This document shows, piece by piece, positions 1,138-43,953 of a stretch of 64,000 nucleotides of DNA. The stretch comes from an uncultured Gammaproteobacteria bacterium (GTDB taxonomy: Bacteria; Patescibacteriota; Microgenomatia; Levybacterales; UBA12049): assembly GCA_964408485.1 (NCBI GenBank), contig CAYOZJ010000005.1, positions 13,203 through 77,202 of the forward strand. Reading direction: 5' to 3'. Both the position numbers and the translations under genes were made by a program. The notes below the pieces were generated by a model, which was given only the letters and a program-made list of their open reading frames with translations, made no database searches and was not told the DNA's origin. Numbering within the stretch: position 1 is the first letter of the stretch; each line of letters begins with the position of its first letter.

Positions 1138-2802
1138 TTGACTTCTTTAATCTCTCCTGAGAGACTATCTTATATGCAATTTCTTAAGCAGATCTCCTGG
1201 AGAGCATATCTAGTCATCTTTTTATTTATTCTCGCCTACTTACTATTAGGAATAATCAAACACAATCACTACTTATCTGGTTACGATTTAGCAGTATCGG
1301 ATCAAGTTATGTGGAAATATAGCGTTTTCCATAATCCTCTTACTACAATTCATGCATATCCTTTTACCTATATGTTTGAGGATCACATTGAATTTATTTA
1401 TGTATTCCTGTCTCCTATTTTTTGGTTGTGGAATACTGTTATTGCGCTTATTAGCATTCAAGCAATATTTTTCTGTCTATCAGGAATTCCCATGTATTTG
1501 CTAGCACGAAAAAAGGGATTACATGAAATTCTTTCACTGACTCTTTTATTTTCTTATTTATTTTTCTTTGGTACACAAAATGCTCTTTGGAATGATGTAC
1601 ACAGCAATGTCTTTGGCGTAAGTTTTCTTGCATGGATGATTTATTTTCTTGAATCAGGAAATACTCTTTGGCTTTGGATTAGTTTTTTCTTTTGTATTAC
1701 AGCAAAAGAAGACATGGCATTTTTAACTGGCGCGGTTGGAGCTGTGTGGCTTCTCAAAAGCGTAAAGCGTAAAGCATTAAGCGTAAAAAACTTAAAGCCT
1801 GTCATCTCGAGCATGCCGCTTCGGGGAAGCAAATACTCTTGGGGTAATGCGAGAGATCTCGTTGAAAGATTTCTCACTTTCGTTCGAAATGACAATATAA
1901 AAACCTCACTCCTTCTTATCTTCTTTTCCCTTTTCTATCTTCTTTTAGTATTTGTTGTATACTTTCCACACTTTACCCCAGGATATAGATTTTCCGGCAA
2001 TGAGAGTCTCCTTGCAAACACACTCCATTGGAATTACTTAGTTGATACAGTGTCAAAGCGACAAATCATTGTCTACTCATTGGGTTGGTTTGGATTTTTA
2101 CCTATTCTAAGTCCATTGTATTTACTCCCCTGGTTTGCAGATATTTTTCATTTCTTTGTCTTAGGACATGCAGTAGATTCTGCAGCAGAAATTTTTCTCC
2201 ATTACCGAGTAAGCATGGCGCCACTTCTTCTTTGGCCAACAATAGAAGGAATACAATTCCTCCTGCAAAGAGCAAACAGACTACCGACTACCGCTGCAGT
2301 CCGTAGTCCGAAAGCCCTAGGCACTACTCTTCAGCTTTTTCTTGCTCTCTACCTTCTTGTTTGCGCTTTTGCTTTACAATACACGCTTCACCTTCCCATA
2401 AGCTATTTGACCAAATCCTGGTTTTGGCATACACCTGCCTCTGTTATAACGATAAACAATACGCTCAAGTATTTACCAAAAAATGCATCTGTTGTTAGTC
2501 AAAATAATATTACGCCACACATTGCCCATAGAGACACTATTTTTACGCTTTGGCCAACTACCAATGGATTTAAAACGCTTGCGGATTCTCCTTGTGGTAA
2601 GTTGACTTGTCCATGGTTTCACTGGGTTGGTAATCCACAGTACATGATTGTTGACTCGTCAAGCGATTTTGATATTCGTCACTTTCTCCAAAATAGACCT
2701 GACTTTTTGGACGCCCTGAATACATTTGAAAAACTTAAAAAAATATCTGTAGTCCACCGTGAAGGCACCACTACTTTGTATAAAGTTCTTCAAAATCCAT
2801 AA
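1138..2802 (+). CDS. Polytopic membrane protein, DUF2079-like
   Basis: N-terminal GYDLAVSDQVMW motif and many TM segments resemble the DUF2079 family. Start uncertain: TTG at 1138 or ATG at 1174. Carries in-frame repeat insertions C1 (1758-1790), A4 (1815-1837) and B3 (1869-1894). Confidence 0.5.
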   Translation: MTSLISPERLSYMQFLKQISWRAYLVIFLFILAYLLLGIIKHNHYLSGYDLAVSDQVMWKYSVFHNPLTTIHAYPFTYMFEDHIEFIYVFLSPIFWLWNTVIALISIQAIFFCLSGIPMYLLARKKGLHEILSLTLLFSYLFFFGTQNALWNDVHSNVFGVSFLAWMIYFLESGNTLWLWISFFFCITAKEDMAFLTGAVGAVWLLKSVKRKALSVKNLKPVISSMPLRGSKYSWGNARDLVERFLTFVRNDNIKTSLLLIFFSLFYLLLVFVVYFPHFTPGYRFSGNESLLANTLHWNYLVDTVSKRQIIVYSLGWFGFLPILSPLYLLPWFADIFHFFVLGHAVDSAAEIFLHYRVSMAPLLLWPTIEGIQFLLQRANRLPTTAAVRSPKALGTTLQLFLALYLLVCAFALQYTLHLPISYLTKSWFWHTPASVITINNTLKYLPKNASVVSQNNITPHIAHRDTIFTLWPTTNGFKTLADSPCGKLTCPWFHWVGNPQYMIVDSSSDFDIRHFLQNRPDFLDALNTFEKLKKISVVHREGTTTLYKVLQNP

Positions 2803-7139: not shown

Positions 7140-8105
7140 ATGACAGACGATACAACAAAATTAGTAGAGGAAGCCATGGAAGAGGCTCAGGACGAACCTA
7201 CTACAGTAACAGAAACAGAAGAAGTTTTCAAAGAGCAAACTCCTGCAGAAAAAGCAGAAGAAGTAGTTGAAGAAGAATCGAAAGATGAAGAAGCAACTGC
7301 ACCGGAGCTTATTGCAGAAGAAGCAGTTGAGCTTGAAAACAAGCCTGAAGAATCATCCGACGCCGAGGCTATGGATGACAAGCCTCAAGTAGAAGAAGTT
7401 TCCAATGAAGAAATAAAGGTTGAAGAAACACCAGTAGAAGAATCCCCTGTCATTTCGAACGAAAGTGAGAAATCTAATACAGACGAGATTGCCGCGTCGC
7501 AAGCTCCTCGCAATGACGATAAGAATGATGAAAAACCTCAAGATGTTTTAGCTGAAGAGAAAAAGGAAATTGTTATTCCAGATAATGCAAAATGGTACAT
7601 TATTCATACCTATGCTGGGCACGAAAATAAAGTGGCAAAAGCTCTTAGACAGCGAGCAGAAACCATGGGTTTTGCAGATAAAATCTTTGATATTATTGTC
7701 CCAACAAGAGAAGTTACTAAAGTTGCAGGCGGTAAAAAGTCTCAAGTCCAAGAAAAAATCTTCCCAGGATATGTTATTGTCCGAATGGTCTTAACTGATG
7801 AGTCATGGATTTTAGTGCGCACTACTCCAGGCGTAACAGCCTTTATTGGTGCAGGCAATAAGCCAACCCCAATCTCAGAAAAAGAAGTAGAAGCAATCCA
7901 GAAATTTATGAAGGTAGAAGAACCTTTATACAAAGCATCTTTTGTTGTTGGTGAGGCTGTAAAGATAGTCGATGGTCCATTTGCTGATTTCTTGGGTACT
8001 ATTGATAGTATTGATGAAACAAAAGGCAAACTTAGAGTGTTAGTCTCTATCTTTGGTCGAGAAACACCAGTTGAGTTAGACCTTTTACAGGTTAGTAAAA
8101 TCTAA
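7140..8105 (+). CDS. nusG: Transcription termination/antitermination factor NusG with a ~140-aa acidic N-terminal extension
   Basis: NGN domain (KWYIIHTYAGHENKV) and KOW domain (FVVGEAVKIVDGPFADFLGTI). The Glu/Asp-rich N-terminal extension contains in-frame repeat element B1 (7449-7517). Confidence 0.9.
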   Translation: MTDDTTKLVEEAMEEAQDEPTTVTETEEVFKEQTPAEKAEEVVEEESKDEEATAPELIAEEAVELENKPEESSDAEAMDDKPQVEEVSNEEIKVEETPVEESPVISNESEKSNTDEIAASQAPRNDDKNDEKPQDVLAEEKKEIVIPDNAKWYIIHTYAGHENKVAKALRQRAETMGFADKIFDIIVPTREVTKVAGGKKSQVQEKIFPGYVIVRMVLTDESWILVRTTPGVTAFIGAGNKPTPISEKEVEAIQKFMKVEEPLYKASFVVGEAVKIVDGPFADFLGTIDSIDETKGKLRVLVSIFGRETPVELDLLQVSKI

Positions 8106-9097: not shown

Positions 9098-10033
9098 ATG
9101 GGAAAAGTTAAAACAATAGATCCAGAAAAACAAGAGCAATTAGCAAAAGAAAAAGCGGCAAAAGAAGCTGAAAGACTGGCACAAGTTGAGGCTGCACGTT
9201 CGGCTGCTTCTGTGAGAGCAAAGGATAAGGTTGGAAAAGAATTAAGAAGCAAGAATCAAGAATCAAGCTCAGAAGAGAAAAAAGAAACAAGTGTCATTCT
9301 GGGGAACGAAGTGACTCCAGAATCTAACGTAGATGCTGGACAAGCCAGCATGACAGATCAAAAAGAACCCAAAAAAAGTAAAAAGGTCTCTAAATATGCT
9401 GCTAAAAAAGGCGCAAAAGGACGAGAAAGGTCTGAAAATTACAAAAAAGCACTTGCTCAAGTAGACAAATCAAAGCAGTATTCTATAAAAGAAGCGTTAG
9501 CACTCTTAGATAAAACTCATTTGGCAAAATTCGATGAAACAGTAGAGTTACACATAAATACAGCATCAGCTGGCCTTTCTGGACAAGTAACTCTCCCTCA
9601 TGGTACAGGTAAAAACGTTAGAGTTGCTATTCTTGCACCAAGTAAAGACGCAAAAGCAGCAGATGACCTTTTGAAAGAAATTGAATCAGGAAAAATTAAT
9701 TTTGATATTTTAGTGGCAACACCTGATGCAATGCCTAAGCTAGCGCGAGTTGCTAAAGTACTCGGACCTCGAGGACTTATGCCAAATCCAAAGAATGGTA
9801 CTGTTAGTCCAAATCCAGAAGCTGTTGCCAAGCAATATGAAGGTGGACAAATGCATTACAAAACAGAAGCAAAGACTCCTATCATGCATTTAGCAGTTGG
9901 TAAGCTTTCTTTTGGACCAGAAAAACTTGAACAAAATATTACTGCAATGTTAAAAGCAGTAAAAATGGAAAATATTAAAAAAGTTGTTGTTAAATCAACA
10001 ATGTCTCCAGCAGTCAGACTTCTTGTCAAATAA
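9098..10033 (+). CDS. rplA: 50S ribosomal protein L1 with a Lys/Glu-rich N-terminal extension of ~84 aa
   Basis: C-terminal 228 aa align with L1 (SKKVSKYAAKKGAKG...VATPDAMPKLARVAKVLGPRGLMPNP). ATG at 9350 is an alternative start. The extension contains a caagaat-type short repeat. Confidence 0.9.
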   Translation: MGKVKTIDPEKQEQLAKEKAAKEAERLAQVEAARSAASVRAKDKVGKELRSKNQESSSEEKKETSVILGNEVTPESNVDAGQASMTDQKEPKKSKKVSKYAAKKGAKGRERSENYKKALAQVDKSKQYSIKEALALLDKTHLAKFDETVELHINTASAGLSGQVTLPHGTGKNVRVAILAPSKDAKAADDLLKEIESGKINFDILVATPDAMPKLARVAKVLGPRGLMPNPKNGTVSPNPEAVAKQYEGGQMHYKTEAKTPIMHLAVGKLSFGPEKLEQNITAMLKAVKMENIKKVVVKSTMSPAVRLLVK

Positions 10034-22276: not shown

Positions 22277-23119
22277 ATGATAGAACAACCTCACCCCAAC
22301 CCTCTCCTAAAAGGAGAGGGAGATCAAAGTGAAGAATTTATTTATATGGAGCCAAAGCTTACTAAAGACGAGAAAAAAGCGCTTCGCCAAGAGGAATGGA
22401 GAGAAAAAGCAGATAAGGAAAGAAAAAACAGGGTTTACAAAATAATTGCAATTTGGTCTTTGGGTGGCATGCTTCTTATTCTGGCTCTTTGGGCATTAGT
22501 TGCTTTTTCTACTGGAACAACAACATCCTCGTCGGGACCAACACTCACCGCGCCCAAAGTAACTTCGAGTGATTTTCAATCCAATCCTAACCCTTCGACA
22601 AGCTCAGGGAAGATTGTCACCCTTATTGAATATGCAGATTTTCAATGTCCAGCGTGTAAATCATACTATCCAATTGTTAAGCAAATTCAGACAATGTATG
22701 GGACGAGATTAAATTTTGTGTATAGATTTTTCCCACTTAAAAGTGTCCATCAAAATGCTGTTAATAGCGCAAAAGCAGCATATGCAGCAGGCTTGCAAAA
22801 GGATGCATCGAATGGTGCGTCCCAAGGAAAATTCTGGGAAATGCATGATAGATTATTTGAAACGCAGGATAGTTGGGCAACCGTTACTAATCCTGAGTCA
22901 ATCTTTCTTGGCTATGCAAAAGATTTAGGACTTAATAATGATGAATTTAAGAAAGATTATGAGGCACAAGCAACAGCTGATTTTATTGACCAATCGTATA
23001 GCAATGATACTGCAATGGGATTAAATAGCACACCAACATTTTTTGTTAATAACAAGCAAATTGATAATCCACAAAGCTTAGATGACTTTAAAAAGTTGAT
23101 TGATGAAGCAATAAAATAG
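22277..23119 (+). CDS. DsbA-family thiol:disulfide oxidoreductase (membrane-anchored thioredoxin fold)
   Basis: N-terminal TM helix and a CPAC active site (EYADFQCPACKSY). ATG at 22343 is an alternative start. The palindrome ccctctcctaaaaggagaggg (22300-22320) lies in the 5' region and a 22-bp direct repeat is at 22591 and 23121. Confidence 0.75.
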   Translation: MIEQPHPNPLLKGEGDQSEEFIYMEPKLTKDEKKALRQEEWREKADKERKNRVYKIIAIWSLGGMLLILALWALVAFSTGTTTSSSGPTLTAPKVTSSDFQSNPNPSTSSGKIVTLIEYADFQCPACKSYYPIVKQIQTMYGTRLNFVYRFFPLKSVHQNAVNSAKAAYAAGLQKDASNGASQGKFWEMHDRLFETQDSWATVTNPESIFLGYAKDLGLNNDEFKKDYEAQATADFIDQSYSNDTAMGLNSTPTFFVNNKQIDNPQSLDDFKKLIDEAIK

Positions 23120-23120
23120 A

Positions 23121-23175
23121 CCCTTCGACAAGCTCAGGGATAATTTTTTCCTGAGCGAACGAAGTGAGTCGAAGG
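23121..23175. repeat. Palindromic repeat element (A family) immediately after the dsbA-like stop; possible terminator
   Basis: cccttcgacaagctcaggga...tcctgagcgaacgaagtgagtcgaagg followed by atttttat. Confidence 0.6.
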
Positions 23176-23183
23176 ATTTTTAT

Positions 23184-23711
23184 ATGGATGACTATTCGTT
23201 GAAAAAGTTTTTTACCTCTCCTTTTCCGATAAAAGTACTCCCCTACTTATTACTTATCTTTGCTGCTTTAGGGTTTTTGGATGCAGGATATCTTACTATT
23301 CAACACTACCAACATGCTATTCCTCCATGCACTGTTGGAGGCTGTGAGACAGTCTTAACAAGCAGTTTTGCCACAGTTGCAGGTATTCCCCTCGCACTTT
23401 TGGGAGTTGGGTTTTATCTAGCCATATTGGTTCTAACAGGAATTTTTATAAGCTTTCGTCATTCTGGGGACGAACAACGTGAGGACTCCAGAATCTCAAA
23501 CAACCCAGATTCTGGACGCACTACGTTTGCCAGAATGACAGTTACTATTCTCTTTACTCTCTGTTCTCTCGGCCTCTTGGTTGGCCTGGGACTTATTGCT
23601 CTTCAAGCATTTATTCTCCATGCATGGTGTTATTATTGTCTATTTTCCGAGCTGATTGATTTTCTACTGTTTGACACAGCATGGTGGCTGTGGAATAATA
23701 ATCGCGCATGA
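23184..23711 (+). CDS. Vitamin K epoxide reductase (VKOR) family protein
   Basis: GYLTIQHY...CTVGGCETVLTSSFATVAGIPLALLG and a C-terminal CYYC. Carries an in-frame palindrome ccagaatctcaaacaacccagattctgg at 23488-23515. Confidence 0.8.
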   Translation: MDDYSLKKFFTSPFPIKVLPYLLLIFAALGFLDAGYLTIQHYQHAIPPCTVGGCETVLTSSFATVAGIPLALLGVGFYLAILVLTGIFISFRHSGDEQREDSRISNNPDSGRTTFARMTVTILFTLCSLGLLVGLGLIALQAFILHAWCYYCLFSELIDFLLFDTAWWLWNNNRA

Positions 23712-24922: not shown

Positions 24923-24930
24923 TTAATGAT

Positions 24931-25326
24931 TTATCTTTGCCTCTCTTGCCTTTGTTGTCTATTTTCCACTTCTCGTCTTGTTGCGGCGGCTCTTTTTGTT
25001 TGCAACCCTTTCTGTGCTGCTGCAACACGTTGCTCATAGGTTTGAGACTGCCTTATTTTATCTCCAAACTTCTTTTGCTCCTCTTCGCTCATATTTTTCC
25101 ACCATTCCCTGGTTTGCTTACCAACATGAGCTCTCTGTTCCTCTGTCCATATGCCCTTTGGTGCATTTGGAAGTCGTTTTTCGCGAATAAGTCTCCTATA
25201 CCGATCCTCTGTTGCGCTGCTTGAACGATTGATTTCCCTAGCGATTTTCGCTACTGGCCACCCCATCCCTTTTAGACGAATCACCTCACTATCTAGAAAT
25301 GCTTCTTCTTCATCTGTTCGTTGCAT
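24931..25326 (-). CDS. Small HTH protein with a basic C-terminal tail (paralog 4)
   Basis: WPVAKIAREINRSSSATEDRYRRL HTH, a W-containing motif (REWWKNMSEEEQKK) and a KR-rich tail. ATG at 25326 avoids overlap with the upstream gene. Confidence 0.5.
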   Translation of the reverse strand: MQRTDEEEAFLDSEVIRLKGMGWPVAKIAREINRSSSATEDRYRRLIREKRLPNAPKGIWTEEQRAHVGKQTREWWKNMSEEEQKKFGDKIRQSQTYEQRVAAAQKGLQTKRAAATRREVENRQQRQERQR

Positions 25327-25327
25327 A

Positions 25328-25831
25328 TTATTTCCTTCTTGGCCTCCCTTTTGCTTCATGTCCTTTTTTAGCCGCTGCAGCTCTATTTTCCCGAGTTCGA
25401 CGAGTCTGAGCAGCTCTTATCGCATCCTTTGCTGCTCCTCTTTCCTTATCGGTCATAACATCCCATCTTTTTGCTGCCAGATCTGAAGCTTGATCTCTGT
25501 GCTCTTGTGTTCGTGGGTATGATTTACCTTCAGGGGCAGAAAGAGTACCTTGCTCTCTCAGTTTTCTAACTCTATATTTCACATTATGAATAGGCATTCC
25601 TCCAAGATCGTCGCCAATTTCCTTAAGCGTCCTTCCTGCCACAACTCCCTCCCGGATAATCCTTTCTTCTTCAGGACTAATATCTAGAGGCTTCATTAAG
25701 CCTTGTGTACGACTTTGGTATTGTTGAGGAGATAAATTTCTCCAAGAATCATTGGCTCTTTTTCTATTTCGATTTGAAACAGCAGTTGGCTCTTGAGCAC
25801 TACTCAAACTTTCATTTTTTTTATTTGCCAT
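25328..25831 (-). CDS. Small HTH protein with a basic C-terminal tail (paralog 3)
   Basis: RTLKEIGDDLGGMPIHNVKYRVRKL HTH; KRWDVMTDKERGAAKD motif. Confidence 0.5.
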   Translation of the reverse strand: MANKKNESLSSAQEPTAVSNRNRKRANDSWRNLSPQQYQSRTQGLMKPLDISPEEERIIREGVVAGRTLKEIGDDLGGMPIHNVKYRVRKLREQGTLSAPEGKSYPRTQEHRDQASDLAAKRWDVMTDKERGAAKDAIRAAQTRRTRENRAAAAKKGHEAKGRPRRK

Positions 25832-25874
25832 AAGAGACTTAGAAAGATTCTATCAGTTTTTTATCAAAAATATA

Positions 25875-26237
25875 TTACATTTCAGGAGGTTTTCTTTTTC
25901 CTTTCCTCGATATTCTCCCACCTATTCCACCACTCCGTCTTCTATTTGTATGGTATGCTTCATCACCTTTTGCAGCTCGCCTTTTCATCCCGCCAACTGC
26001 TGCATCTCGAAATTCAGAAGACTCTGGTGCCCAAAATCTACTCATGGCATTACTTACTCGCTCGCTTTTATTAGGAAGTAAATCAGGTTCTGTATTTCGA
26101 ATTGAGGCAATACGCCGTATAACTGTGGAGACACTTACATGTAATTCTGAGGCAATTTCTGGATCTGTCTTACCCTCAACGAGAATAAGTCGCTTAATCT
26201 TTTCATCAATATCAGCATCAAGTTTTTTGCCACCCAT
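25875..26237 (-). CDS. Small HTH protein with a basic C-terminal tail (paralog 2)
   Basis: DPEIASELHVSVSTVIRRI HTH; SRFWAPESSEF motif. Confidence 0.5.
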   Translation of the reverse strand: MGGKKLDADIDEKIKRLILVEGKTDPEIASELHVSVSTVIRRIASIRNTEPDLLPNKSERVSNAMSRFWAPESSEFRDAAVGGMKRRAAKGDEAYHTNRRRSGGIGGRISRKGKRKPPEM

Positions 26238-26251
26238 ACTGAACCTGTAAT

Positions 26252-26662
26252 TTAGTTAGTAACCTGACCTTGTCTTCGTTTTTGTTGTTTTACTTCTCTT
26301 GCTTTTGCAATATTGGCTCTTAGTTTTGCAGCTTCATCCTCTCTTTCCATTCTCCTCTTCCCTCCAGCTATTCTGTTATCACGCACAGACTCTAATTTTG
26401 ATGCTTCCTGAAGTCCTCTTTGCCAATTCTCCCGCACATCGGGATCTGACCAAGCTCTACTAAGAGAACGCGATCGACGCTTTTCCCACGGAAGTATACC
26501 TTCTACACCACCTTGCTTCATACGCTCTATTCTATACGCAACAGTGTCTGGGTGACGCCTAACTTCTCTACCAATATCTTCAGTACTAAAACCCTGATCA
26601 AGAAGTTCAAGAATTCTCTGATTTATTGGATCATTCGGATCCTCGGCTCTTACTTGAGGCAT
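26252..26662 (-). CDS. Small HTH protein with a basic C-terminal tail (paralog 1)
   Basis: FSTEDIGREVRRHPDTVAYRIERM HTH; SRAWSDPDVRENW motif; starts 2 nt after the M16 peptidase stop. Confidence 0.5.
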   Translation of the reverse strand: MPQVRAEDPNDPINQRILELLDQGFSTEDIGREVRRHPDTVAYRIERMKQGGVEGILPWEKRRSRSLSRAWSDPDVRENWQRGLQEASKLESVRDNRIAGGKRRMEREDEAAKLRANIAKAREVKQQKRRQGQVTN

Positions 26663-28680: not shown

Positions 28681-30510
28681 CTACATTTTCTCAGGAGCTT
28701 GGATACCAAGCAAATTAAGGCCTTGTTTTAAGACAATTCCCACTCCTTGAGTCAGCGCAAGTCTAAATTCTTTTTCTTTTTCTGAATCTGCATTCAGAAT
28801 TCTGTATTTTTGATAGAAATTGTTAAACATCTGAGATAACTCAAACACATATTCACAAATCATATTTGGTGCATAATTCTCTGCTGCAGATTCTACAGTT
28901 GGACCAAATTGAACAAGTTTTTGTAGTAAGATTTTCTCCTCACTCTGGGGTGTATAATCTGAGGATAATCTATTTTTTGCCTGAGCTGTGCCGCTTCGGG
29001 GAAGCAAATACTGAGTCGAGTGTCGAAGGCCCTTCGACTCACTCTGTTCGCTCAGGGAAGAAGAATTACTTTGGGCTTTACTTAAAACACTTTGGGTCCT
29101 GGCATATGTATACTGAATGTACGGTCCAGAATGCCCATCAAGAGATACTGATTTTTCAATATCAAAAACAGCATTCTGTGCTGTCCCACCTTTGAGAACC
29201 GAATATTTCACTGCACCGATGGTTACTTTTTCCAAAGCTTCATCTCTCTCTTCTCCAACAACTTTCCCTTCTTTAAAAAGACTGTCTGCAGCTGCCTTCA
29301 CCTGGTCAATAAGCCAATCAACAGTGAGTATATCTCCCGTACGTGAGCTCATTTTTTTACCAACCAACTGAACCATTCCCATAGACAGATGATATTGCTT
29401 ATCTTTAAACTTCTCTGGATCAAGTAATTCTAGGGCCTTGAAAACTACTTGAAAATACCCAGCCTGTTCATTGGCAACCACATGAATTTTTTTATCGAAG
29501 TGACTGGCTTCCCATTCATCATATGCATTTTGCATTTCTTTTCCTTCATACGTTGGATTTCCAGCTTGAGTTATGAATACACGCGTGTGAAGACCATACC
29601 TCTCGCCTGGGAAAATAACTGATCCATCTGGATCTTTAACAAATATTTTCCCAACATTTTTCTCAACAAGTTGCTTTCCCTTCTCATACATTTGGCTTTC
29701 TAAGAAAAGCTTGTCGTATTTTGTATAAAACCTACTATAAAACTCATCATAATAATCCATGCTCCACTTGTGCGTTTGCACATACATATCCCAGTGGTAT
29801 CCAGGTACTTTTCGATATAAATCATTATTAATTTTGTCAATTTTTTCCCTTTCCTGCTCATAATCAAGGTTCCCTCGAACATATCCTTCTCCTAAAAAGT
29901 GCGACTTGTCTTTTGCACTCCATTCCTCAACTTCATCAAGTTTTAAATCCTTTTCCTGCATGATTTTTTCTATACCATAGATTGCTTTCGCAACATGTGG
30001 TCCAATATCACCTTGGTAATTCGCACGGAAAACCTTAGCTCCTTGAGATTCTAAAAGCCTAGAAAGAGACTCACCTGTAATAAGCGTACGCATATGGCCA
30101 ATATGCATTTCTTTATGTGTATTTGGATGAGCAAATTCAACAAGATATTGAATATTTTCCATTTTCTTTGTTGTGGCAACTTTTTCCGGAGCATTAAGCA
30201 CATGCTCGAGATCCTTTTTTAATGTCTCTGCTGATAAGTAAAAATTAATAAACCCTGGGGTAGCTGCTTCTACTTTTTCTAGTTCTCCTGAGCCTGCCGA
30301 ATGGATTCCCGAGTAATTACCGAACTCCTTAACTATTTCTTGAGCAGTATCCAGTGGACTTTTACCTAAAATCTTGGATAATTGAAAAGCAACATTACTT
30401 GTGTAATCACCTTTACTGATATCTTTTGGTATAGATATTATAGTATTTACCTGCTTATCTGTTAATTTCTTAACAACTTCTTGTAATTTTTTTTGTAATT
30501 TATCTTTCAT
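28681..30510 (-). CDS. argS: Arginine--tRNA ligase
   Basis: HIGH motif (MHIGHMRT) and a C-terminal DALR domain ending LNLLGIQAPEKM. Contains the in-frame A-family repeat insertion 28975-29060. Confidence 0.9.
   Translation of the reverse strand: MKDKLQKKLQEVVKKLTDKQVNTIISIPKDISKGDYTSNVAFQLSKILGKSPLDTAQEIVKEFGNYSGIHSAGSGELEKVEAATPGFINFYLSAETLKKDLEHVLNAPEKVATTKKMENIQYLVEFAHPNTHKEMHIGHMRTLITGESLSRLLESQGAKVFRANYQGDIGPHVAKAIYGIEKIMQEKDLKLDEVEEWSAKDKSHFLGEGYVRGNLDYEQEREKIDKINNDLYRKVPGYHWDMYVQTHKWSMDYYDEFYSRFYTKYDKLFLESQMYEKGKQLVEKNVGKIFVKDPDGSVIFPGERYGLHTRVFITQAGNPTYEGKEMQNAYDEWEASHFDKKIHVVANEQAGYFQVVFKALELLDPEKFKDKQYHLSMGMVQLVGKKMSSRTGDILTVDWLIDQVKAAADSLFKEGKVVGEERDEALEKVTIGAVKYSVLKGGTAQNAVFDIEKSVSLDGHSGPYIQYTYARTQSVLSKAQSNSSSLSEQSESKGLRHSTQYLLPRSGTAQAKNRLSSDYTPQSEEKILLQKLVQFGPTVESAAENYAPNMICEYVFELSQMFNNFYQKYRILNADSEKEKEFRLALTQGVGIVLKQGLNLLGIQAPEKM
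28975..29060. repeat. A-family palindromic repeat element inserted in frame in argS
   Basis: cctgagctgtgccgcttcggggaagcaaatactgagtcgagtgtcgaaggcccttcgactcactctgttcgctcagggaag; a near-identical copy is in leuS at 43121-43201. Confidence 0.85.
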
Positions 30511-30516
30511 AGTTTT

Positions 30517-30575
30517 GTCATTCCTACGAAGGCAGGAATCTAGTTTCTGGATCCCGGATCAAGTCCGGGATGACA
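30517..30575. repeat. B-family-like hairpin element between argS and the MBL gene (overlaps the last 5 codons of the MBL gene)
   Basis: gtcattcctacgaaggcaggaatc ... gatcccggatcaagtccgggatgac. Confidence 0.5.
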
Positions 30576-31149
30576 TCTTTTTATTCTCAAACATTTTTCC
30601 ATGACCCGGAATAATCCAATCTGCTAGCTCCAAAATTTCTTTACGTGAAGTAACTAACTCATCCATCTTTTCTGCAAAATCATCCGATTTTTCTACATTT
30701 ACCACCTGCTCTTCTCCTTCTGACCACCAAAAACAATCTCCTGCAGCAACAACTGTGCCATTTTCTGTTGGAACAACAAGAGAAGCATGCGCATATTCGT
30801 GCCCAGGGGTTGCAATAACAGTAATATCTGTGTCGGGAAGCATTTTTACGCCTGCAACAGCAACAGACTGCATGTAGACAGCCTCTTCATCTATTACTTT
30901 TGCATTAGGAAATAATCCCACATTCATTGCATGATCCAAATGATGATGGGTAATAAAGACCATATCGATATCTTCAATGCTTAAACTTCTCTTTTTAAGC
31001 TCTGCAAATAATAAATCCCTATTTGCTCCAGGATCTACAAGAATCTTCTTGCCACTACCAGTCACAATAAGAGTACAGGAGCTGCTTGCATCCCAACCAG
31101 CCTCAGTTATCTTTGCATATCCTTCAATTAAAACGTCAACTTTATTCAT
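30559..31149 (-). CDS. MBL-fold metallo-hydrolase
   Basis: HxHxDH motif (ITHHHLDH) and further His/Asp ligands. Confidence 0.8.
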   Translation of the reverse strand: MNKVDVLIEGYAKITEAGWDASSSCTLIVTGSGKKILVDPGANRDLLFAELKKRSLSIEDIDMVFITHHHLDHAMNVGLFPNAKVIDEEAVYMQSVAVAGVKMLPDTDITVIATPGHEYAHASLVVPTENGTVVAAGDCFWWSEGEEQVVNVEKSDDFAEKMDELVTSRKEILELADWIIPGHGKMFENKKMSSRT

Positions 31150-32598: not shown

Positions 32599-33027
32599 AT
32601 GAATCCAAATCAGGACTACAAACAACTATTAACAGAAGTTATTAAAAAACAAATTGTTATTTTAGGTCCAGATATTACGCTTTCCAAAGCTCGCAATGTG
32701 AAAGGACTTGTGGTTGCAAATGATGGAACTGTTACTGCATATACGGGCGAGCCTCAAGCAGTAACTCAAGCATTGATTGATCAATTTGTCCAACTTTCTG
32801 GCCTTATCGTAAAGCAGACAATGGAACCACTTCTCTCGATGCCACAACCAACACTTCAAAACCCTTCTGTCATTGCGAGTGAAACGAAGCAATCTAATAC
32901 TAATAACGAGATTGCCGCGTCGCAAGCTCCTCGCAATGACGTGAGTACACCAGCTCAACCTATTACATCTGTGGCTACTCCCCCTACAACCACCCCTACT
33001 CCTGCTAAAAATCCATTGGCAGCATAA
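32599..33027 (+). CDS. Hypothetical protein with a Pro/Thr-rich C-terminus
   Basis: ORF translationally coupled to the receiver gene; contains in-frame repeat element B2 (32869-32940). Confidence 0.4.
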   Translation: MNPNQDYKQLLTEVIKKQIVILGPDITLSKARNVKGLVVANDGTVTAYTGEPQAVTQALIDQFVQLSGLIVKQTMEPLLSMPQPTLQNPSVIASETKQSNTNNEIAASQAPRNDVSTPAQPITSVATPPTTTPTPAKNPLAA

Positions 33028-33124: not shown

Positions 33125-33207
33125 TAACCTAATTATCTAATTGACCTAATTAACCTAAAGATAAAGTACCTTATTTTTAGAAATTAGAAATTAGAAATTA
33201 GAAATTT
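33125..33207. repeat. D-family AT-rich intergenic repeat (copy 3) with (agaaatt)x4 at 33178-33205
   Basis: taacctaattatctaattgacctaattaacctaa ... tttttagaaattagaaattagaaattagaaatt. Confidence 0.65.
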
Positions 33208-33213
33208 TAGGCT

Positions 33214-33573
33214 ATGCTTAATATTGACCCACAACGATTATTAACCGTCATAATAGAGGCTGGAAGCTTTATGTCTGCATTTGCCGCAATCGCTGCTGGC
33301 ATTGTCATGGCCAGTGTCACCAAGAAATTTGGTACAGGTATTTTAGCAAGTGGGTTTAAAACAAATTCGTGGGGAGTATTTTTTATTGCATTTGGCATTA
33401 TTATTGACGCGCTCAATTCGTACCTGACTGTTAACAACTATACTGCAGTACTTCCACCATATGTTTCGATATGTATTCTTTTGGCAAAAGAAGCGTGCTT
33501 TGTTGTTGGTACATACATTATTGTTATTGGAAGCAAGAAAACAGGTGATAAATTAGAATCCCTCATGAAATAA
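33214..33573 (+). CDS. Small membrane protein (119 aa, ~3 TM)
   Basis: Hydrophobic ORF between the receiver and sigma-factor genes. Confidence 0.45.
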   Translation: MLNIDPQRLLTVIIEAGSFMSAFAAIAAGIVMASVTKKFGTGILASGFKTNSWGVFFIAFGIIIDALNSYLTVNNYTAVLPPYVSICILLAKEACFVVGTYIIVIGSKKTGDKLESLMK

Positions 33574-39231: not shown

Positions 39232-39237
39232 GGAAAT

Positions 39238-39267
39238 AGCGTAAAGGGTAAAGCGTTAAGGGTCAAG
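39238..39267. repeat. C-family repeat copy (agcgtaaagggtaaagcgttaagggtcaag)
   Basis: Related copies at 1758-1790 and, in reverse orientation, 48986-49012. Confidence 0.6.
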
Positions 39268-39345
39268 AGAGAAAAACGAAAAATGTCAAATAGGATATGA
39301 GAATGTATAAAAGTTAAGAATTTTTATAGACATCGAGGTTTAGAT

Positions 39346-39591: not shown

Positions 39592-39620
39592 ATAGGCATC
39601 CTACTGTTTTAAAAAATAAA

Positions 39621-39660
39621 TTTCAACAAACAAAATTAACTATTTTCCCAGGCACGTAGG
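39621..39660. repeat. leuS-3'-end-like repeat copy E3
   Basis: tttcaacaaacaaaattaactattttcccaggcacgtagg, nearly identical to 40640-40669 inside leuS. Confidence 0.8.
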
Positions 39661-39666
39661 ATACCT

Positions 39667-39939: not shown

Positions 39940-40003
39940 CTTGTCATTAAAGCATTTTTACCTGAGGAGGTCAAAGGTAAATGAAGCTAAAAAGTCTTAG
40001 ATG

Positions 40004-40629: not shown

Positions 40630-43317
40630 TCAAAATACTACAAAATTAACTATTTTCCCAGGCACGTAGATAACTTTTCTTACTGTCTTTCCTTCTAAAT
40701 GAGCTTTTACTTTCCCTGATGCCTGTGCTGCTTGTTCTATATCAGATTGCTTCGCATCGCTCGCAATGACGAGAGTGTCGCGGAGTTTTCCATTAATTTG
40801 GACCGCGACCGTAACTGTATCAGAAACTATCAAACTATCATCGTGGCTAGGCCACTTCTCCTGATGAATTGACGTAAATGCCTCATCTCCAGCCTCACTA
40901 TCAGTAAGCTTATTCAACTGCCAAAGCTCTTCTGTTATATGCGGAGCAAACGGGGACAAGATAATCAGAAAATTCTTGAATTCTTCCTCCATAATTTGAG
41001 GCTTAGCATCTAAATAATTAAGCCACTTCATCATTGCTGCAACAGCTGTATTATTTTTTATATCTGCAATGTCTTCCCCAACCTTTTTTATGGCTGTATG
41101 CATCTGAAAGAGATCTTCTCTTGTCATTCCATTTATTGCCTGAGCTTGTCGAAGGCCCTCCCCGACCAAACCTTTCGATTCGCTTCGCTCACTCAGGGAA
41201 GAATTAACAACCCTTGGATACAAGTCCCAAACACGCTTGAGGAAGCGAAACATCCCGTACATTGCTGTTGTTGACCATGGCCCTGTTGCCTGGTACGGCA
41301 TCATAAAAGATAAATAGACACGCACAGCATCTGTACCAAACTCTTTAACAACATCATCCGGATTGATCACATTACCCTTGGACTTACTCATCTTATTGCC
41401 ATCTGGACCCAAAACAATGCCATGCTGAACACGCTTAAGGGCAAATTCATCAAAGTCCACCATACCTAGGTCTTTAAAGAATTTTGTGAAAAATCGTGCG
41501 TAAAGAGTGTGTCCCAAGGTATGCTCTCCCCCTCCAAAATAAATATCTAAAGGCATAAGCTTCGCAACCTCTTTAGGATCAAATGGACCTTTTGTGTACT
41601 GAGGATCAACATATCGGTAGTAATACCAAGCACTATCGAAAAATGTGTCTAATGTCTCTGGATCACGCTTTGCCTCACGTCCACATTTTGGACAAGCTAC
41701 TTTTAGCCACTCGCTATTACTTTCCAAAGGCGCTTTTCCTTTTGGCTGATAATCAACATCGTAGGGAAGATTTACTGGTAAATCTTTTAATGGTACCGGA
41801 ACCATTCCATCTATATCGCAATATATCATTGGAACGGGTGTTCCCCAATATCTTTGGCGACTAACAGACCAATCTCGAAGATGATATTGAATTTTTCTCT
41901 TACCAATGCCTTTCTGCTCTATCTGTTGAGTCATCTTTTCTTTTGCATCCTTACTGCTTAAAGCATTGAATTCTCCTGAATTAAATAATTCTGATTTCTC
42001 TTTATATGTTGTTTTTATTTCTGAATAGCTCCAGAATCCTTCTTCTTCTACTTTGGCACCATCTTCTGTTGGTTTAACTACAAATGTAATTGGTAAATTA
42101 AATTTTTCCGCGAATTCATGATCACGCTCATCATGACCAGGAACACCCATAACTGCACCTGTTCCATAGTTCATTAAAACGTAATCCGCAACCCAAACAG
42201 GAACTTCTTCATTAGTAAAGGGATTAATGACATACCCACCTGTAAAAACACCTGTTTTATCTTTTGTTTCAATGAGTCTATCACGCTCTGTCTTTTCTGA
42301 AGCGTCTTTAACATAGGCTTGAACTTCTTTTTTTATCGTGTCGTCCTTAACTTGTTTTAGAATCTCGTCAACTAATGGATTCTCAGGCGCTAAGACAACG
42401 AAGGAAACGCCAAAAATAGTATCCAGGGCTGTGGTAAATACTTCAATTTTGAATTTTGAATTTTGAATTTTGAATTCGAGCTGAACGCCTTCAGATCGTC
42501 CTATCCAATCATTTTGCGCTGTCATGACGGATTTTGGCCAGTCTACCCCATTACCATCTTTATTCCATAAAAGTTGTTCTGCATAGTCTGTAATGCGTAA
42601 AAACCACTGCTCTACTTCCTTTTGCACAACGGTATCGCCACATCTCCAGCATTTCCCATTTTCTACATGCTCATTGGCAAGGACTGTTTGGTCTGTTGGG
42701 CACCAATTGGAAAGCGTCTTGCCTCTATAAGCAATTCCTTTTTCATACATTTTTTCAAAAATCCATTGATTCCAAATATAATATTCAGGCAGACATGTTA
42801 CAGTTACATGATCCCAATCAATCATTGTACCCATGGTCTCGAATTGCATAGTCATGGTCTCTATATTCTTGAGCGTCCAGTCTTGTGGGTGAATATTACG
42901 CTTGATTGCTGCGTTTTCTGCAGGAAGACCGAAAGCATCGTATCCCATGGGGAAGAAAACATTATAACCTTGCATACGCTTAAAACGAGAGAGCACATCT
43001 GGGGCAACGAAGGTAAACCAATGACCAATATGTAAATCTCCTGAAGGATATGGAAGCTCAACAAGCGTATAAAACTTACCCTTCGATTTCCTAGACTCAG
43101 GACTAGGTTCGCCGAACCGTCGCACTTGCTCACTCAGGGAAAATTTTTTGCCTGAGCTGTGCCGCTTCGGGGAAGCAAATACTGAGTCGAGTGTCGAAGG
43201 CTTATCGCTATTACTGTCAAACTTGTATAGCCCTGCCTCACGCCACACGTCTTGCCATTTCTTTTCTATGTCCTTTGGAAAATATTTTTTCCATTCTGAT
43301 TGCGCTTGCTTATTCAT
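40630..43317 (-). CDS. leuS: Leucine--tRNA ligase
   Basis: HIGH (DLHIGHWFTF) and KMSKS (KMSKSKGN) motifs; 895 aa. Contains in-frame repeat insertions A3 (41139-41201) and A2 (43121-43201), a B-like segment (40745-40785), and the heptanucleotide repeat at 42445-42472. Its last ~30 coding nt (40640-40669) are the E-repeat. Confidence 0.95.
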   Translation of the reverse strand: MNKQAQSEWKKYFPKDIEKKWQDVWREAGLYKFDSNSDKPSTLDSVFASPKRHSSGKKFSLSEQVRRFGEPSPESRKSKGKFYTLVELPYPSGDLHIGHWFTFVAPDVLSRFKRMQGYNVFFPMGYDAFGLPAENAAIKRNIHPQDWTLKNIETMTMQFETMGTMIDWDHVTVTCLPEYYIWNQWIFEKMYEKGIAYRGKTLSNWCPTDQTVLANEHVENGKCWRCGDTVVQKEVEQWFLRITDYAEQLLWNKDGNGVDWPKSVMTAQNDWIGRSEGVQLEFKIQNSKFKIEVFTTALDTIFGVSFVVLAPENPLVDEILKQVKDDTIKKEVQAYVKDASEKTERDRLIETKDKTGVFTGGYVINPFTNEEVPVWVADYVLMNYGTGAVMGVPGHDERDHEFAEKFNLPITFVVKPTEDGAKVEEEGFWSYSEIKTTYKEKSELFNSGEFNALSSKDAKEKMTQQIEQKGIGKRKIQYHLRDWSVSRQRYWGTPVPMIYCDIDGMVPVPLKDLPVNLPYDVDYQPKGKAPLESNSEWLKVACPKCGREAKRDPETLDTFFDSAWYYYRYVDPQYTKGPFDPKEVAKLMPLDIYFGGGEHTLGHTLYARFFTKFFKDLGMVDFDEFALKRVQHGIVLGPDGNKMSKSKGNVINPDDVVKEFGTDAVRVYLSFMMPYQATGPWSTTAMYGMFRFLKRVWDLYPRVVNSSLSERSESKGLVGEGLRQAQAINGMTREDLFQMHTAIKKVGEDIADIKNNTAVAAMMKWLNYLDAKPQIMEEEFKNFLIILSPFAPHITEELWQLNKLTDSEAGDEAFTSIHQEKWPSHDDSLIVSDTVTVAVQINGKLRDTLVIASDAKQSDIEQAAQASGKVKAHLEGKTVRKVIYVPGKIVNFVVF
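42445..42472. repeat. Tandem heptanucleotide repeat (aattttg) x4 inside leuS
   Basis: Direct reading; encodes LEFKIQNSKFKIEVF. Confidence 0.8.
43121..43201. repeat. A-family palindromic repeat element inserted in frame in leuS
   Basis: Near-identical to 28975-29060 in argS. Confidence 0.85.
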
Positions 43318-43817: not shown

Positions 43818-43953
43818 AAAATAAAAAACTCCCTTTCGGGAGTTCAATTAAAAAATTACTCCCACACAAACTACTCCTCAAGAAGGAGTGCTGTTGTGAG
43901 AAGCCCTTCGACTACGCTCAGGGTAAAAAGTTTTATTGTCATGAAAGAATTAT

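What the first reader, a model, noticed from the sequence alone, without database searches (positions are those of the whole stretch)
28975..29060. A-family palindromic repeat elements inserted in frame in essential genes (argS, leuS)
An ~80-bp element bounded by inverted cctgagc/gctcagg ends is found near-identically at argS 28975-29060 and leuS 43121-43201. Its core is gccgcttcggggaagcaaatactgagtcgagtgtcgaaggcccttcgac. A diverged copy is in leuS at 41139-41201, fragments sit inside the DUF2079-like gene (1815-1837) and the DsbA-like gene (22591-22611), and copies lie just after the dsbA-like stop (23121-23175) and at 43914-43933. All coding copies keep the reading frame, adding segments such as LSEQSESKGLRHSTQYLLPRSGTAQ. 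This mirrors Rickettsia palindromic elements, mobile hairpins tolerated as peptide insertions, and would be notable in a small-genome lineage.
Basis: seen in the sequence. Interest (0 to 1): 0.7.

Follow-up and report, generated by a model that had tools for sequence, protein, structure and literature searches.

The report
Hairpin repeats inserted in-frame in genes
A small-genome Patescibacteria (CPR) bacterium carries many copies of short hairpin-forming selfish DNA repeats. Several sit in frame inside essential genes such as the arginyl- and leucyl-tRNA synthetases, where they add apparently passenger peptide loops, much as the palindromic elements of Rickettsia do.

Summary
The repeat is real but was described slightly wrongly. 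An exact 59-nt block (28972-29030 = 43143-43201) is shared by argS and leuS. Its 24-nt core recurs at 1814-1837. The basic unit is CCTGAGC-Nx-GTCGAAGG, found as inverted dimers.

Ortholog alignments show the coding copies are lineage-specific insertions.
- ArgRS gains 27 aa, absent from its closest homologs. In an AlphaFold model they fall in a low-confidence coil between two helices.
- LeuRS gains about 38 aa near the N-terminus, absent from all 59 aligned homologs.
- LeuRS also gains 22 aa in a variable loop. One relative shares this in decayed form; another lacks it.

The same 59-mer is read in two different frames in the two enzymes, so the DNA is what is copied, not the peptide.

The window holds about 22 such units at 13 sites in 48 kb, roughly 10 of them in coding sequence. 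They include a second class, GTCAT-stem-loop-stem-ATCT. The 26-nt unit occurs unchanged in more than 15 bacterial phyla, often with GTCAT/ATCT flanks. That links it to CGTC-tagged REPs (which include Rickettsia RPE-4 and RPE-6) and to the NTS/SRM hairpins cut by Ssn nucleases.

This is a new member of a known kind. The mobilising enzyme was not found.

The parts
28681..30510 (-). argS (arginine--tRNA ligase, 609 aa), host gene of the insertion
   Evidence: Pfam Arg_tRNA_synt_N, tRNA-synt_1d and DALR_1. DALR_1 spans 145 residues against a 117-position profile. Homologs.
28972..29063 (.). A-family head-to-head dimer in argS. Unit 28980-29029 (+) carries the nested 24-nt core; unit 29031-29056 (-). 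T-rich and GAAGAA flanks. Encodes ArgRS residues about 486-512 (LSEQSESKGLRHSTQYLLPRSGTAQAK).
   Evidence: Absent from the closest orthologs. DNA fold -18.2 kcal/mol, z = -3.2. RNA fold z = -2.5. Low-pLDDT coil in the AF2 model.
40630..43317 (-). leuS (leucine--tRNA ligase, 895 aa), host gene of three element sites
   Evidence: Pfam tRNA-synt_1, tRNA-synt_1_2 and Anticodon_1. Homologs.
43080..43201 (.). Compound A-family element in the leuS N-terminus. It comprises unit 43080-43101 (-), a decayed unit ending in CTCAGGG at about 43113-43139 (-), an AAAATTTTTT spacer, and the 59-mer with unit 43151-43200 (+). Encodes the LeuRS insertion at residues about 39-79 (about 38-39 extra residues).
   Evidence: Absent from all 59 aligned homologs and from 1h3n, where query 33-77 corresponds to chain 25-30. 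Folds as one long hairpin: DNA z = -5.5; RNA -49.3 kcal/mol, z = -4.3.
41139..41197 (.). Older, diverged A-family head-to-head dimer in leuS: units 41139-41155 (+) and 41171-41197 (-). Encodes SSLSERSESKGLVGEGLRQAQA (LeuRS residues about 706-727).
   Evidence: Empty site in L121; decayed copy in L122. The fold is no longer significant (z = -0.8 as DNA).
40744..40770 (-). Single GTCAT-type unit GTCATTGCGAGCGATGCGAAGCAATCT in the leuS C-terminal domain (VIASDAKQS). The segment is of native length and is shared with relative L121.
22592..22608 (-). Single short A unit (CCTGAGCTTGTCGAAGG) in the linker of the DsbA-like/thioredoxin gene 22277-23119. Encodes PSTSSG.
23122..23175 (.). Intergenic A-family tail-to-tail dimer directly after the DsbA-like stop codon. 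Unit 23150-23175 is the canonical 26-mer CCTGAGCGAACGAAGTGAGTCGAAGG.
   Evidence: (I6). DNA fold z = -4.6. The 26-mer pattern is found in many phyla.
43905..43922 (-). Single A unit, intergenic, upstream of ORF 43954-44664
1801..1893 (.). GTCAT-type inverted pair inside the DUF2079 membrane-protein gene. The left hairpin (GTCATCTCGAG...CGAGAGATCT) carries the 24-nt core 1814-1837 in its loop. The right unit is 1867-1893 (-).
   Evidence: The core is read as PLRGSKY.
7449..7517 (.). GTCAT-type inverted pair in the N-terminal extension of NusG
9293..9354 (.). GTCAT-type inverted pair in the N-terminal extension of ribosomal protein L1
   Evidence: DNA fold z = -3.0.
23458..23539 (.). GTCAT-type inverted pair inside the VKOR gene 23184-23711
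   Evidence: DNA fold z = -4.9.
30517..30574 (.). GTCAT-type inverted pair between the argS start and the MBL-fold gene. Unit 30549-30574 (-) matches the published SRM pattern and supplies the last five codons and the stop codon of gene 30559-31149.
32869..32940 (.). GTCAT-type inverted pair in ORF 32599-33027. The block 32906-32941 is identical to 7483-7518.
   Evidence: DNA fold z = -4.8.

Best explanation
These are non-autonomous, hairpin-forming selfish DNA repeats of the REP/MITE type. The basic unit is an imperfect hairpin, CCTGAGC-loop-GTCGAAGG. In other bacteria it is flanked by GTCAT on the 5' side and ATCT on the 3' side. Units usually occur as inverted dimers.

Copies are made at the DNA level and land throughout a very gene-dense genome. 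Insertions that break a gene are lost. The survivors are multiples of three, free of stop codons in the frame used, and located in permissive linkers or surface loops. The ribosome then reads them through as passenger peptides.

Shown here:
- The copies are recent and identical at the DNA level.
- The same DNA is read in different frames in different genes.
- The segments are absent from the nearest orthologs.
- They map to variable, low-confidence loops.
- They have hairpin-forming potential.
- The same permissive loops have been hit independently by related elements in other Patescibacteria.

Inferred, not shown:
- The inserts are actually translated.
- Mobilisation is by a trans-acting enzyme that recognises single-stranded hairpins. 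The most plausible candidate is an Ssn-type GIY-YIG ssDNA nuclease with host repair or recombination, or a Y1/HUH transposase. No such gene is in this window.
For: - The 59-nt exact repeat lies in two unlinked essential genes. It is translated as LRHSTQYLLPRSGTAQAKN in ArgRS and PSTLDSVFASPKRHSSGKK in LeuRS. The 24-nt core gives a third reading (PLRGSKY) in DUF2079. Conservation is therefore at the DNA level, not the protein level.
- The insertions are lineage-specific.
- AF2 places the ArgRS insertion in a coil of pLDDT 48-54 within a model of mean pLDDT 91.7.
- Hairpin folds have z = -3.2 to -5.5 for the young copies. The old copy shared with a relative has lost its fold (z = -0.8).
- There are 13 GTCAT-type and 12 A-type unit hits against about 1 expected of each, at 13 sites, about 10 of them in coding sequence.
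- The same ArgRS linker and LeuRS loops carry other members of the class in other Patescibacteria. Examples are VIANEVKQS...IAADFSSPRTIA in P0006 (DNA confirmed in L123), VIPAKAGI, PELVEG, FILSEAKDL and SGQARMT.
- A Roizmanbacteria PBP-like ORF carries the canonical unit in frame (SVILSERSESKDP).
- The 26-nt unit occurs in at least 120 stretches from more than 15 phyla. Of 130 units with usable flanks, 41% have GTCAT on the 5' side and 22% have an inverted partner within 120 nt.
- Literature: CGTC-tagged REPs are hairpins whose stems start with AT. They form mostly head-to-head dimers, occur inside genes, and include R. conorii RPE-4 and RPE-6 (PMC3733652). NTS/SRM hairpins (CGTCATTCCC...GGGAATC) are cut as ssDNA by the small GIY-YIG nuclease SsnA and are enriched in symbionts (PMC11893778).
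Against: - The window contains no transposase, RAYT or small GIY-YIG gene. The mobilisation step is therefore unsupported here.
- The published SRM search pattern matches only one unit (30547-30575) and none of the A-family units.
- Loops are mostly 10-20 nt, against 4-5 nt in the described CGTC REPs.
- No target-site duplication is visible at the argS or leuS sites.
- The private 24-nt core and the dimer junction were not found in any public collection. Genome-wide copy number and spread among relatives are therefore unknown.
- There is no transcript or peptide evidence that the inserts are translated.
- The unit at 40744-40770 sits in a segment of native length. A simple insertion does not explain it.
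Confidence: 0.8

Rival explanations
1. The segments are native, functionally selected parts of ArgRS and LeuRS: lineage-specific insertion modules that add a function, such as a binding surface.
For: CPR aaRS lengths vary widely (555-659 aa for ArgRS, 749-1109 aa for LeuRS). The LeuRS site-2 insertion has persisted long enough to be shared with a 71%-identical relative.
Against: The identical 59-mer is read in two different frames in the two enzymes. The closest orthologs lack the segments. The ArgRS segment is predicted to be disordered. The same DNA units also occur in intergenic DNA (23122-23175, 43905-43922) and in unrelated proteins.
Confidence: 0.04
2. Copies spread by templated repair or gene conversion rather than by transposition. 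Breaks, or stalled forks at hairpins, are repaired using other hairpin copies as template. This patches element sequence into similar or permissive sites. Uptake of foreign DNA by natural transformation could contribute.
For: - The unit at 40744-40770 replaces a segment of native length rather than adding length.
- The 24-nt core is nested in the loops of two different hairpin families.
- Dimers occur in two permuted arrangements.
- No target-site duplications are seen.
- comEA- and comEC-like competence genes lie next to leuS. The comEA reading rests on the SLBB/HHH_3 and Competence Pfam hits in syntenic L122 and on sequence inspection.
- SsnA modulates transformation in Neisseria (PMC11893778).
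Against: There is no direct evidence. De novo 81-114-nt insertions at sites that are empty in relatives call for an insertion-type event. The two models differ only in enzymology and are not mutually exclusive.
Confidence: 0.12
3. The repeats are assembly or binning artefacts: repeat-induced chimeric joins in a metagenome-assembled contig.
For: The source is a MAG-type contig (the ArgRS cluster lists a single NCBI contig of 82,837 bp). Short repeats can mis-join reads.
Against: Both genes stay intact and collinear with their orthologs on both sides of every insert. An independent assembly (L122, from a Logan SRA run) carries the homologous decayed insert at LeuRS site 2. Other independent assemblies carry related in-frame elements at the same loops.
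Confidence: 0.02
4. The inserts are removed or bypassed before the mature protein is made, through intron-like RNA excision, translational hopping or protein splicing.
For: The leuS N-terminal element forms a very stable 126-nt RNA hairpin (-49.3 kcal/mol).
Against: No Rfam family matches. At 60-120 nt the inserts are too short for group I or II introns or for inteins. Every coding copy is in frame and free of stop codons. That is required only if the inserts are translated.
Confidence: 0.02

Closest known systems
Rickettsia palindromic elements (RPE), especially RPE-4 and RPE-6, which Di Nocera et al. 2013 class as CGTC-tagged REPs
   Same: Short hairpin-forming repeats in a reduced genome. 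They are inserted in frame in housekeeping genes, absent from orthologs, often dimers encoding 20-30 aa, and tolerated in loops (PMC3733652; this window).
   Different: The host is a Patescibacterium, not an alphaproteobacterium. Sequence homology to RPE consensus sequences was not tested. The A-family units here lack the CGTC/GTCAT tag and have much longer loops, one of which carries a nested 24-nt hairpin core.
CGTC-tagged REP superfamily (Di Nocera et al. 2013, BMC Genomics 14:522)
   Same: The window's GTCAT-type units have the (N)GTC tag, a stem that begins with AT and ends with AT, a short tail, mostly head-to-head dimers, occasional intragenic copies, and no dedicated transposase nearby.
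   Different: Described stems are 8-9 bp with loops of 4-5 nt. Here stems are 5-9 bp and loops mostly 10-20 nt. Only 30549-30574 and 9331-9354 fit the described geometry. Patescibacteria are not among the five phyla reported.
NTS/dRS3 and Ssn-related motifs (SRM), targets of the GIY-YIG ssDNA nuclease SsnA (Chenal et al. 2025, Nat Commun 16:2388)
   Same: The architecture matches NTS, CGTCATTCCC-N8-GGGAATCYRG. Unit 30517-30541 reads GTCATTCCTACGAAGGCAGGAATCT, and 30547-30575 matches the published degenerate SRM pattern. The class is distributed across phyla and enriched in symbionts.
   Different: Only 1 of about 22 units matches the SRM pattern, and none of the A family do. No ssnA-like gene is in the window. 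The paper does not report in-frame coding insertions or CPR hosts.
REP / REPIN / BIME with RAYT transposases
   Same: Short imperfect palindromes that occur as inverted doublets in head-to-head and tail-to-tail arrangements with characteristic linkers, in many copies per genome.
   Different: There is no GTAG tag and no RAYT gene is seen. According to the papers read here, classical REPs lie predominantly in intergenic regions (PMC3184786; PMC3733652), though intragenic copies are known. Here about three quarters of the sites are in coding sequence.
Coxiella burnetii QMITE1/QMITE2 (Wachter et al. 2018)
   Same: Small repeats in a reduced genome that overlap or extend annotated ORFs. The small QMITE2 copies look like REPs.
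   Different: QMITEs are 190-400 bp with terminal inverted repeats and direct repeats, and are reported as specific to Coxiella. The units here are 17-50 nt and pan-bacterial.

Membership tests
Rickettsia palindromic elements (RPE) | Repeated palindromic DNA able to fold as a hairpin | tested here: met
   DNA folds z = -3.2 (argS), -5.5 (leuS N-terminus) and -4.6 (23119-23177). RNA folds z = -2.5 and -4.3.
Rickettsia palindromic elements (RPE) | Inserted in frame in protein-coding genes and absent from orthologs | tested here: met
   ArgRS +27 aa, LeuRS about +38 aa and +22 aa..
Rickettsia palindromic elements (RPE) | The insertion maps to a surface-exposed or permissive part of the fold | tested here: met
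   By prediction only. In AF2 model m32c5f71d94db, residues 491-522 are coil, with pLDDT 48-54 over 491-510, between helices 462-490 and 523-533. The site is the variable linker before the DALR domain.
Rickettsia palindromic elements (RPE) | Sequence similarity to an RPE-1 to RPE-8 consensus; Rickettsia host | not tested
   No RPE consensus sequence was available in the tools. The host is Patescibacteria, judged from the source names of ArgRS and LeuRS homologs.
CGTC-tagged REPs (Di Nocera 2013) | Unpaired CGTC tetranucleotide at one end | tested here: inconclusive
   GTC is present in all 12 real GTCAT-type units, but the preceding base is C only at 23457. A-family units in the window have no tag. 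Their homologs in other phyla have GTCAT in 54 of 130 cases.
CGTC-tagged REPs (Di Nocera 2013) | Stem of 8-9 bp starting with AT; loop of 4-5 nt; 3-nt tail | tested here: not met
   The AT start is met. Stems are 5-9 bp and loops mostly 10-20 nt. Only 30549-30574 (stem 8, loop 5, tail CCA) and 9331-9354 (stem 7, loop 5) fit.
CGTC-tagged REPs (Di Nocera 2013) | Mostly head-to-head dimers; intragenic copies occur | tested here: met
   Eight inverted pairs have the tagged ends outside: 1801-1893, 7449-7517, 9293-9354, 23458-23539, 30517-30574, 32869-32940, 28980-29056 and 41139-41197. Two pairs are tail-to-tail. About 10 of 13 sites are in coding sequence.
SRM/NTS-Ssn system (Chenal 2025) | Match to the degenerate SRM pattern HGTCWYN(0-2)YYVSBRHN(0-5)WNVSBRGN(0-2)RNCYNB | tested here: not met
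   One match in 64 kb (30547-30575), against 0.12 expected. No A-family unit and no other GTCAT-type unit matches.
SRM/NTS-Ssn system (Chenal 2025) | A small single-domain GIY-YIG (cd10448) ssnA gene in the genome, typically flanked by the repeats | tested here: inconclusive
   No GIY-YIG-like ORF in the window. Only 64 kb of the genome is available. The single GIY-YIG ORF among the 120 foreign loci (L114) has no flanking hairpins.
SRM/NTS-Ssn system (Chenal 2025) | Strand-specific cleavage of the hairpin as ssDNA by the cognate Ssn | not testable with these tools
   Requires a biochemical assay.
REP/REPIN-RAYT | GTAG tag and an associated RAYT (Y1 transposase) gene | tested here: not met
   The tags are GTCAT or absent. 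No transposase hit among the 30 Pfam-scanned ORFs of the window.
MITE | Terminal inverted repeats plus target-site duplications; a related autonomous IS | tested here: inconclusive
   The dimer arms act as terminal inverted repeats. Inspection shows no direct repeats flanking the argS or leuS inserts. No IS is present in the window.

The most novel reading that the evidence does not exclude
These hairpins may be an active, trans-mobilised system in Patescibacteria, with these features:
- It would be linked to an Ssn-type ssDNA nuclease or to DNA taken up by natural transformation.
- It would repeatedly write new peptide loops into essential proteins at a few hot spots, contributing to the idiosyncratic insertions of CPR proteins.
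- Its 26-nt unit, identical across more than 15 phyla with GC content from 33% to 72%, would reflect ongoing inter-phylum spread of a tiny mobile element, or constraint by one conserved enzyme, rather than ancient inheritance.
Probability: 0.15. Interest if true: 0.75.

Novelty: new member of a known kind. Interest (0 to 1): 0.45.

Why it matters
It extends 'selfish DNA inside protein-coding genes', known mainly from Rickettsia, to the Candidate Phyla Radiation, another reduced-genome and probably host-dependent lineage.

It ties that phenomenon to a pan-bacterial class of GTCAT/CGTC-tagged hairpins, for which a cognate ssDNA nuclease (Ssn) has only recently been found.

Practical consequences:
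- Such inserts inflate and diversify CPR proteins. They can mislead alignments, phylogenies and structure predictions, and they generate spurious 'hypothetical' ORFs.
- They offer presence/absence markers for strain-level population genetics of CPR.
- The recurrent hits at the same loops of ArgRS and LeuRS give a natural map of permissive sites in these enzymes.

Tried and rejected
- Rfam, at gathering threshold and at E <= 5, returned only two tRNAs and chance-level hits. No family covers the elements.
- Exact scans for the private 22-nt core in genome contigs and metagenome contigs, and for the tail-to-tail junction in metagenome contigs, gave 0 hits. Copy number outside the window and presence in related bins could therefore not be measured.
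- The window's own ArgRS is not on record in the look-up of encoding contigs.
- I looked for a recurrent neighbouring gene (a candidate autonomous partner) in the 120 foreign loci. No protein cluster was present in more than 8 loci.
- A motif scan for small GIY-YIG ORFs in the window and all loci gave one hit (L114). It had no flanking hairpins. Its homologs are mostly from Omnitrophota, often on very short contigs. This says nothing about CPR.
- BLAST of a canonical dimer against plasmids, and of the argS element against phages, gave no match. Only 3 viral contigs hold the 26-mer.
- Full-text searches for element strings or peptides (PELVEG, VIPAKAGI, GTCATCCTGAG and others), and for RPE together with CPR, found nothing relevant.
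- I considered and rejected intron, intein and bypass readings, an assembly artefact, and native conserved segments (see the rival explanations).
Full report
OBSERVATION

The region 28972-29030 is identical over 59 nt to 43143-43201 (blastn-short; identity checked). The 24-nt core TGCCGCTTCGGGGAAGCAAATACT occurs a third time at 1814-1837.

Reading the sequence shows that the repeating unit is CCTGAGC-Nx-GTCGAAGG, or its reverse complement. The internal part varies:
- TT;
- GAACGAAGTGA and variants of it;
- a 35-nt version that contains the 24-nt core, itself a small GCTTC-GGG-GAAGC hairpin.

Units pair up in two ways:
- Head to head: argS 28980-29056 and leuS 41139-41197.
- Tail to tail, around an A(A/T)AATTTTTT spacer: 23122-23175 and leuS 43113-43200.

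The leuS copy shares 59 nt and sits in a permuted, compound element spanning 43080-43201. A relaxed unit pattern gives 12 hits in the window against 0.92 expected.

THE HOST GENES AND THE ORGANISM

ORF 28681-30510 (-) is ArgRS and ORF 40630-43317 (-) is LeuRS (Pfam). Their best homologs come from Patescibacteria/CPR. Among the named hits are Levybacteria, Daviesbacteria and 'Patescibacteria group'. The window is gene-dense and includes a 5231-aa ORF.

ARE THE CODING COPIES INSERTIONS?

ArgRS. In an alignment of 120 homologs, the closest ones (60-68% identity) read KAES-SNTQ-PQ-LSKDYTPQ. The window reads KAQS-NSSS[LSEQSESKGLRHSTQYLLPRSGTAQAK]NR-LSSDYTPQ, which is 27 extra residues. E. coli ArgRS (4oby) aligns to residues 31-486 and 524-609, leaving about 27 unmatched query residues. 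An AlphaFold2 model built on 70 homologs has mean pLDDT 91.7. Over residues 491-510 the pLDDT is only 48-54, and residues 491-522 are coil between helices 462-490 and 523-533.

LeuRS site 1. Residues about 41-78 (PSTLDSVFASPKRHSSGKKFSLSEQVRRFGEPSPESRKS) are absent from all 59 aligned homologs. T. thermophilus LeuRS has 6 residues where the window has 45.

LeuRS site 2. Residues about 706-727 are absent in the 71%-identical relative L121. They are present, decayed and partly deleted, in the 71%-identical relative L122. This is a true presence/absence polymorphism and an older event.

LeuRS site 3. A third leuS element (40744-40770, GTCATTGCGAGCGATGCGAAGCAATCT, VIASDAKQS) occupies a segment of native length and is shared with L121.

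DNA, NOT PEPTIDE, IS WHAT IS COPIED

The identical 59-mer is read as LRHSTQYLLPRSGTAQAKN in ArgRS and as PSTLDSVFASPKRHSSGKK in LeuRS. The core is read as PLRGSKY in the DUF2079 protein. The same units also lie in intergenic DNA (23122-23175, 43905-43922).

Young copies fold as strong hairpins:
- DNA: z = -3.2, -5.5 and -4.6.
- RNA: the 126-nt leuS element folds at -49.3 kcal/mol, z = -4.3.

The old, shared copy at 41134-41204 no longer folds significantly (z = -0.8).

THE WIDER POPULATION IN THE WINDOW

A second class has the form GTCAT-stem-loop-stem-ATCT, with the stem beginning AT. It usually occurs as inverted pairs with the GTCAT ends outermost. Thirteen hits were found against 1.15 expected. 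The sites are:
- the DUF2079 gene (1801-1893, with the 24-nt core nested in one loop);
- the N-terminal extensions of NusG (7449-7517) and L1 (9293-9354);
- the VKOR gene (23458-23539);
- ORF 32599-33027 (32869-32940);
- leuS (40744-40770);
- the argS/MBL intergenic region (30517-30574), where one unit supplies the last five codons and the stop codon of the MBL-fold gene.

In total there are about 22 units at 13 sites in the first 48 kb, roughly 10 of them in coding sequence. None lies in the 15.7-kb giant ORF.

OUTSIDE THE WINDOW

The private 24-nt core and the dimer junction were not found in the genome or metagenome collections.

I estimate the chance expectation at about 0.004. The hosts span more than 15 phyla: Bacillota, Acidobacteriota, Actinomycetota, Bacteroidota, Planctomycetota, Chloroflexota, Myxococcota, Gemmatimonadota, Eremiobacterota, Omnitrophota, several Patescibacteria classes and others. 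They include cultured isolates.

In those genomes, 54 of 130 units are preceded by GTCAT. Most of these are followed by ATCT or ACCT, and 29 have an inverted partner within 120 nt. The A family is thus a derived member of the GTCAT-hairpin class.

In low-GC non-CPR genomes the units mostly lie outside long ORFs. In a Roizmanbacteria genome, one sits in frame in a penicillin-binding-protein-like ORF (SVILSERSESKDP).

In Patescibacteria ArgRS and LeuRS, the same linker and loops carry other members of the class:
- VIANEVKQS...IAADFSSPRTIA in P0006 (DNA confirmed in L123);
- VIPAKAGI, PELVEG, FAKASA, FILSEAKDL and SGQARMT.

With strict peptide motifs, 7 of 120 ArgRS and 14 of 120 LeuRS homologs carry at least one, against 1 and 0 motif hits in shuffled sequences. 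These loops are either hot spots or the only places where insertions survive.

RELATION TO KNOWN SYSTEMS

Di Nocera et al. 2013 (PMC3733652) defined CGTC-tagged REPs. These have:
- an unpaired CGTC tag;
- a stem of 8-9 bp starting with AT, and a 4-5-nt loop;
- mostly head-to-head dimers;
- occasional intragenic copies;
- no dedicated transposase.

That paper states that R. conorii RPE-4 and RPE-6 belong to this class.

Chenal et al. 2025 (PMC11893778) showed three things. The Neisseria NTS (CGTCATTCCCGCGMAVGCGGGAATCYRG, which contains dRS3) is cut as ssDNA by the 94-aa GIY-YIG nuclease SsnA. Related 'SRM' hairpins occur across phyla and are enriched in symbionts. The ssnA genes are typically flanked by the repeats.

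The window's GTCAT-type units share this architecture. However, only one (30547-30575) matches the published SRM pattern. Loops are mostly longer than in the described families, and no ssnA-like or transposase gene is in the window. Membership in these families is therefore a well-founded resemblance rather than a demonstrated fact. The mobilising enzyme remains unknown.

Neither paper reports CPR hosts. The Ssn paper does not mention coding insertions. Full-text searches found no report of such elements in CPR.

MECHANISM

The best-supported account is this. Selfish hairpin repeats are copied at the DNA level. In a genome with little intergenic space they often land in genes. Only in-frame, stop-free insertions into permissive loops or linkers persist, and these are translated as passenger peptides.

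Steps shown:
- recent DNA-level copying;
- reading in different frames;
- absence from orthologs;
- location in loops;
- hairpin-forming potential;
- recurrence at the same loops in other lineages.

Steps inferred:
- translation of the inserts;
- the copying enzyme, whether an Ssn-type nuclease with repair, an HUH transposase, or gene conversion between hairpins.

Several features leave room for a templated-repair component: the native-length unit at 40744-40770, the core nested in loops of two hairpin families, and the two permuted dimer forms.

VERDICT

The phenomenon is a new member of a known kind: REP/RPE-like hairpins inserted in frame, here in a Patescibacterium. It is of moderate interest.

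Noticed in passing
window 39200-40700: Between the leuS stop codon and the comEA-like gene lie four small ORFs (72-90 aa). They are separated by copies of the last 30 nt of leuS: 40640-40669 is the real end, 39630-39659 is 100% identical, and 40004-40033 is 83% identical. In relative L122 the same interval is only 239 bp. This looks like an array of small cassettes integrated at the 3' end of leuS, each leaving an att-like copy.
   Followed up: partly
window 40744-40770 (leuS) and L121 about 12350-12380: A canonical GTCATTGCGAGCGAAGCGAAGCAATCT unit (VIASDAKQS / VIVSEAKQS) occupies a segment of native length in the LeuRS C-terminal domain. Relative L122 has TVASSATQE there, with unrelated DNA. 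It is a replacement rather than an insertion, and is unexplained.
   Followed up: partly
window 30549-30574 and gene 30559-31149 (-): The last five codons and the stop codon (MSSRT*) of the metallo-beta-lactamase-fold gene are supplied by a GTCAT hairpin unit. This is the only unit that matches the published SRM pattern.
   Followed up: partly
window 48215-63910: A giant 5231-aa ORF with many internal 50-300-nt repeats. Its syntenic homolog in L121 has Phage_int_SAM_1, DUF2341, Laminin_G_3 and Peptidase_S74 hits. It contains none of the hairpin units, although 22 units lie in the other 48 kb.
   Followed up: no
L001-L120 (genome contigs): A 26-nt sequence (CCTGAGCGAGCGAAGCGAGTCGAAGG and close variants) is conserved exactly in genomes from more than 15 phyla with GC content from 33% to 72%, often as tGTCAT-unit-ATCT. 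What keeps it identical across such distances is not explained.
   Followed up: partly
window 24410-26662 (-): Five tandem small genes (120-170 aa). Four have helix-turn-helix hits, and they have similar basic C-terminal tails. They are apparently a paralogous array.
   Followed up: no
window 18790-18904 and 46487-46588: Two intergenic regions share a 25-nt (96%) and a 49-nt (92%) block, next to TTAGAAAT-type short repeats (also at 33171-33220). This is a different repeat family, possibly regulatory.
   Followed up: no
window 14917-15264 and 20462-21019: Two genes match the 23S rRNA-intervening-sequence protein family (the second only weakly, below Pfam's cut-off). No rRNA gene is in the window.
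   Followed up: no
P0241-P0360 (homologs of the L114 GIY-YIG ORF): Small (83-118 aa) GIY-YIG nucleases, mostly from Omnitrophota, sit very often on contigs shorter than 1.5 kb. This is as expected for multi-copy or mobile genes that break assemblies.
   Followed up: no
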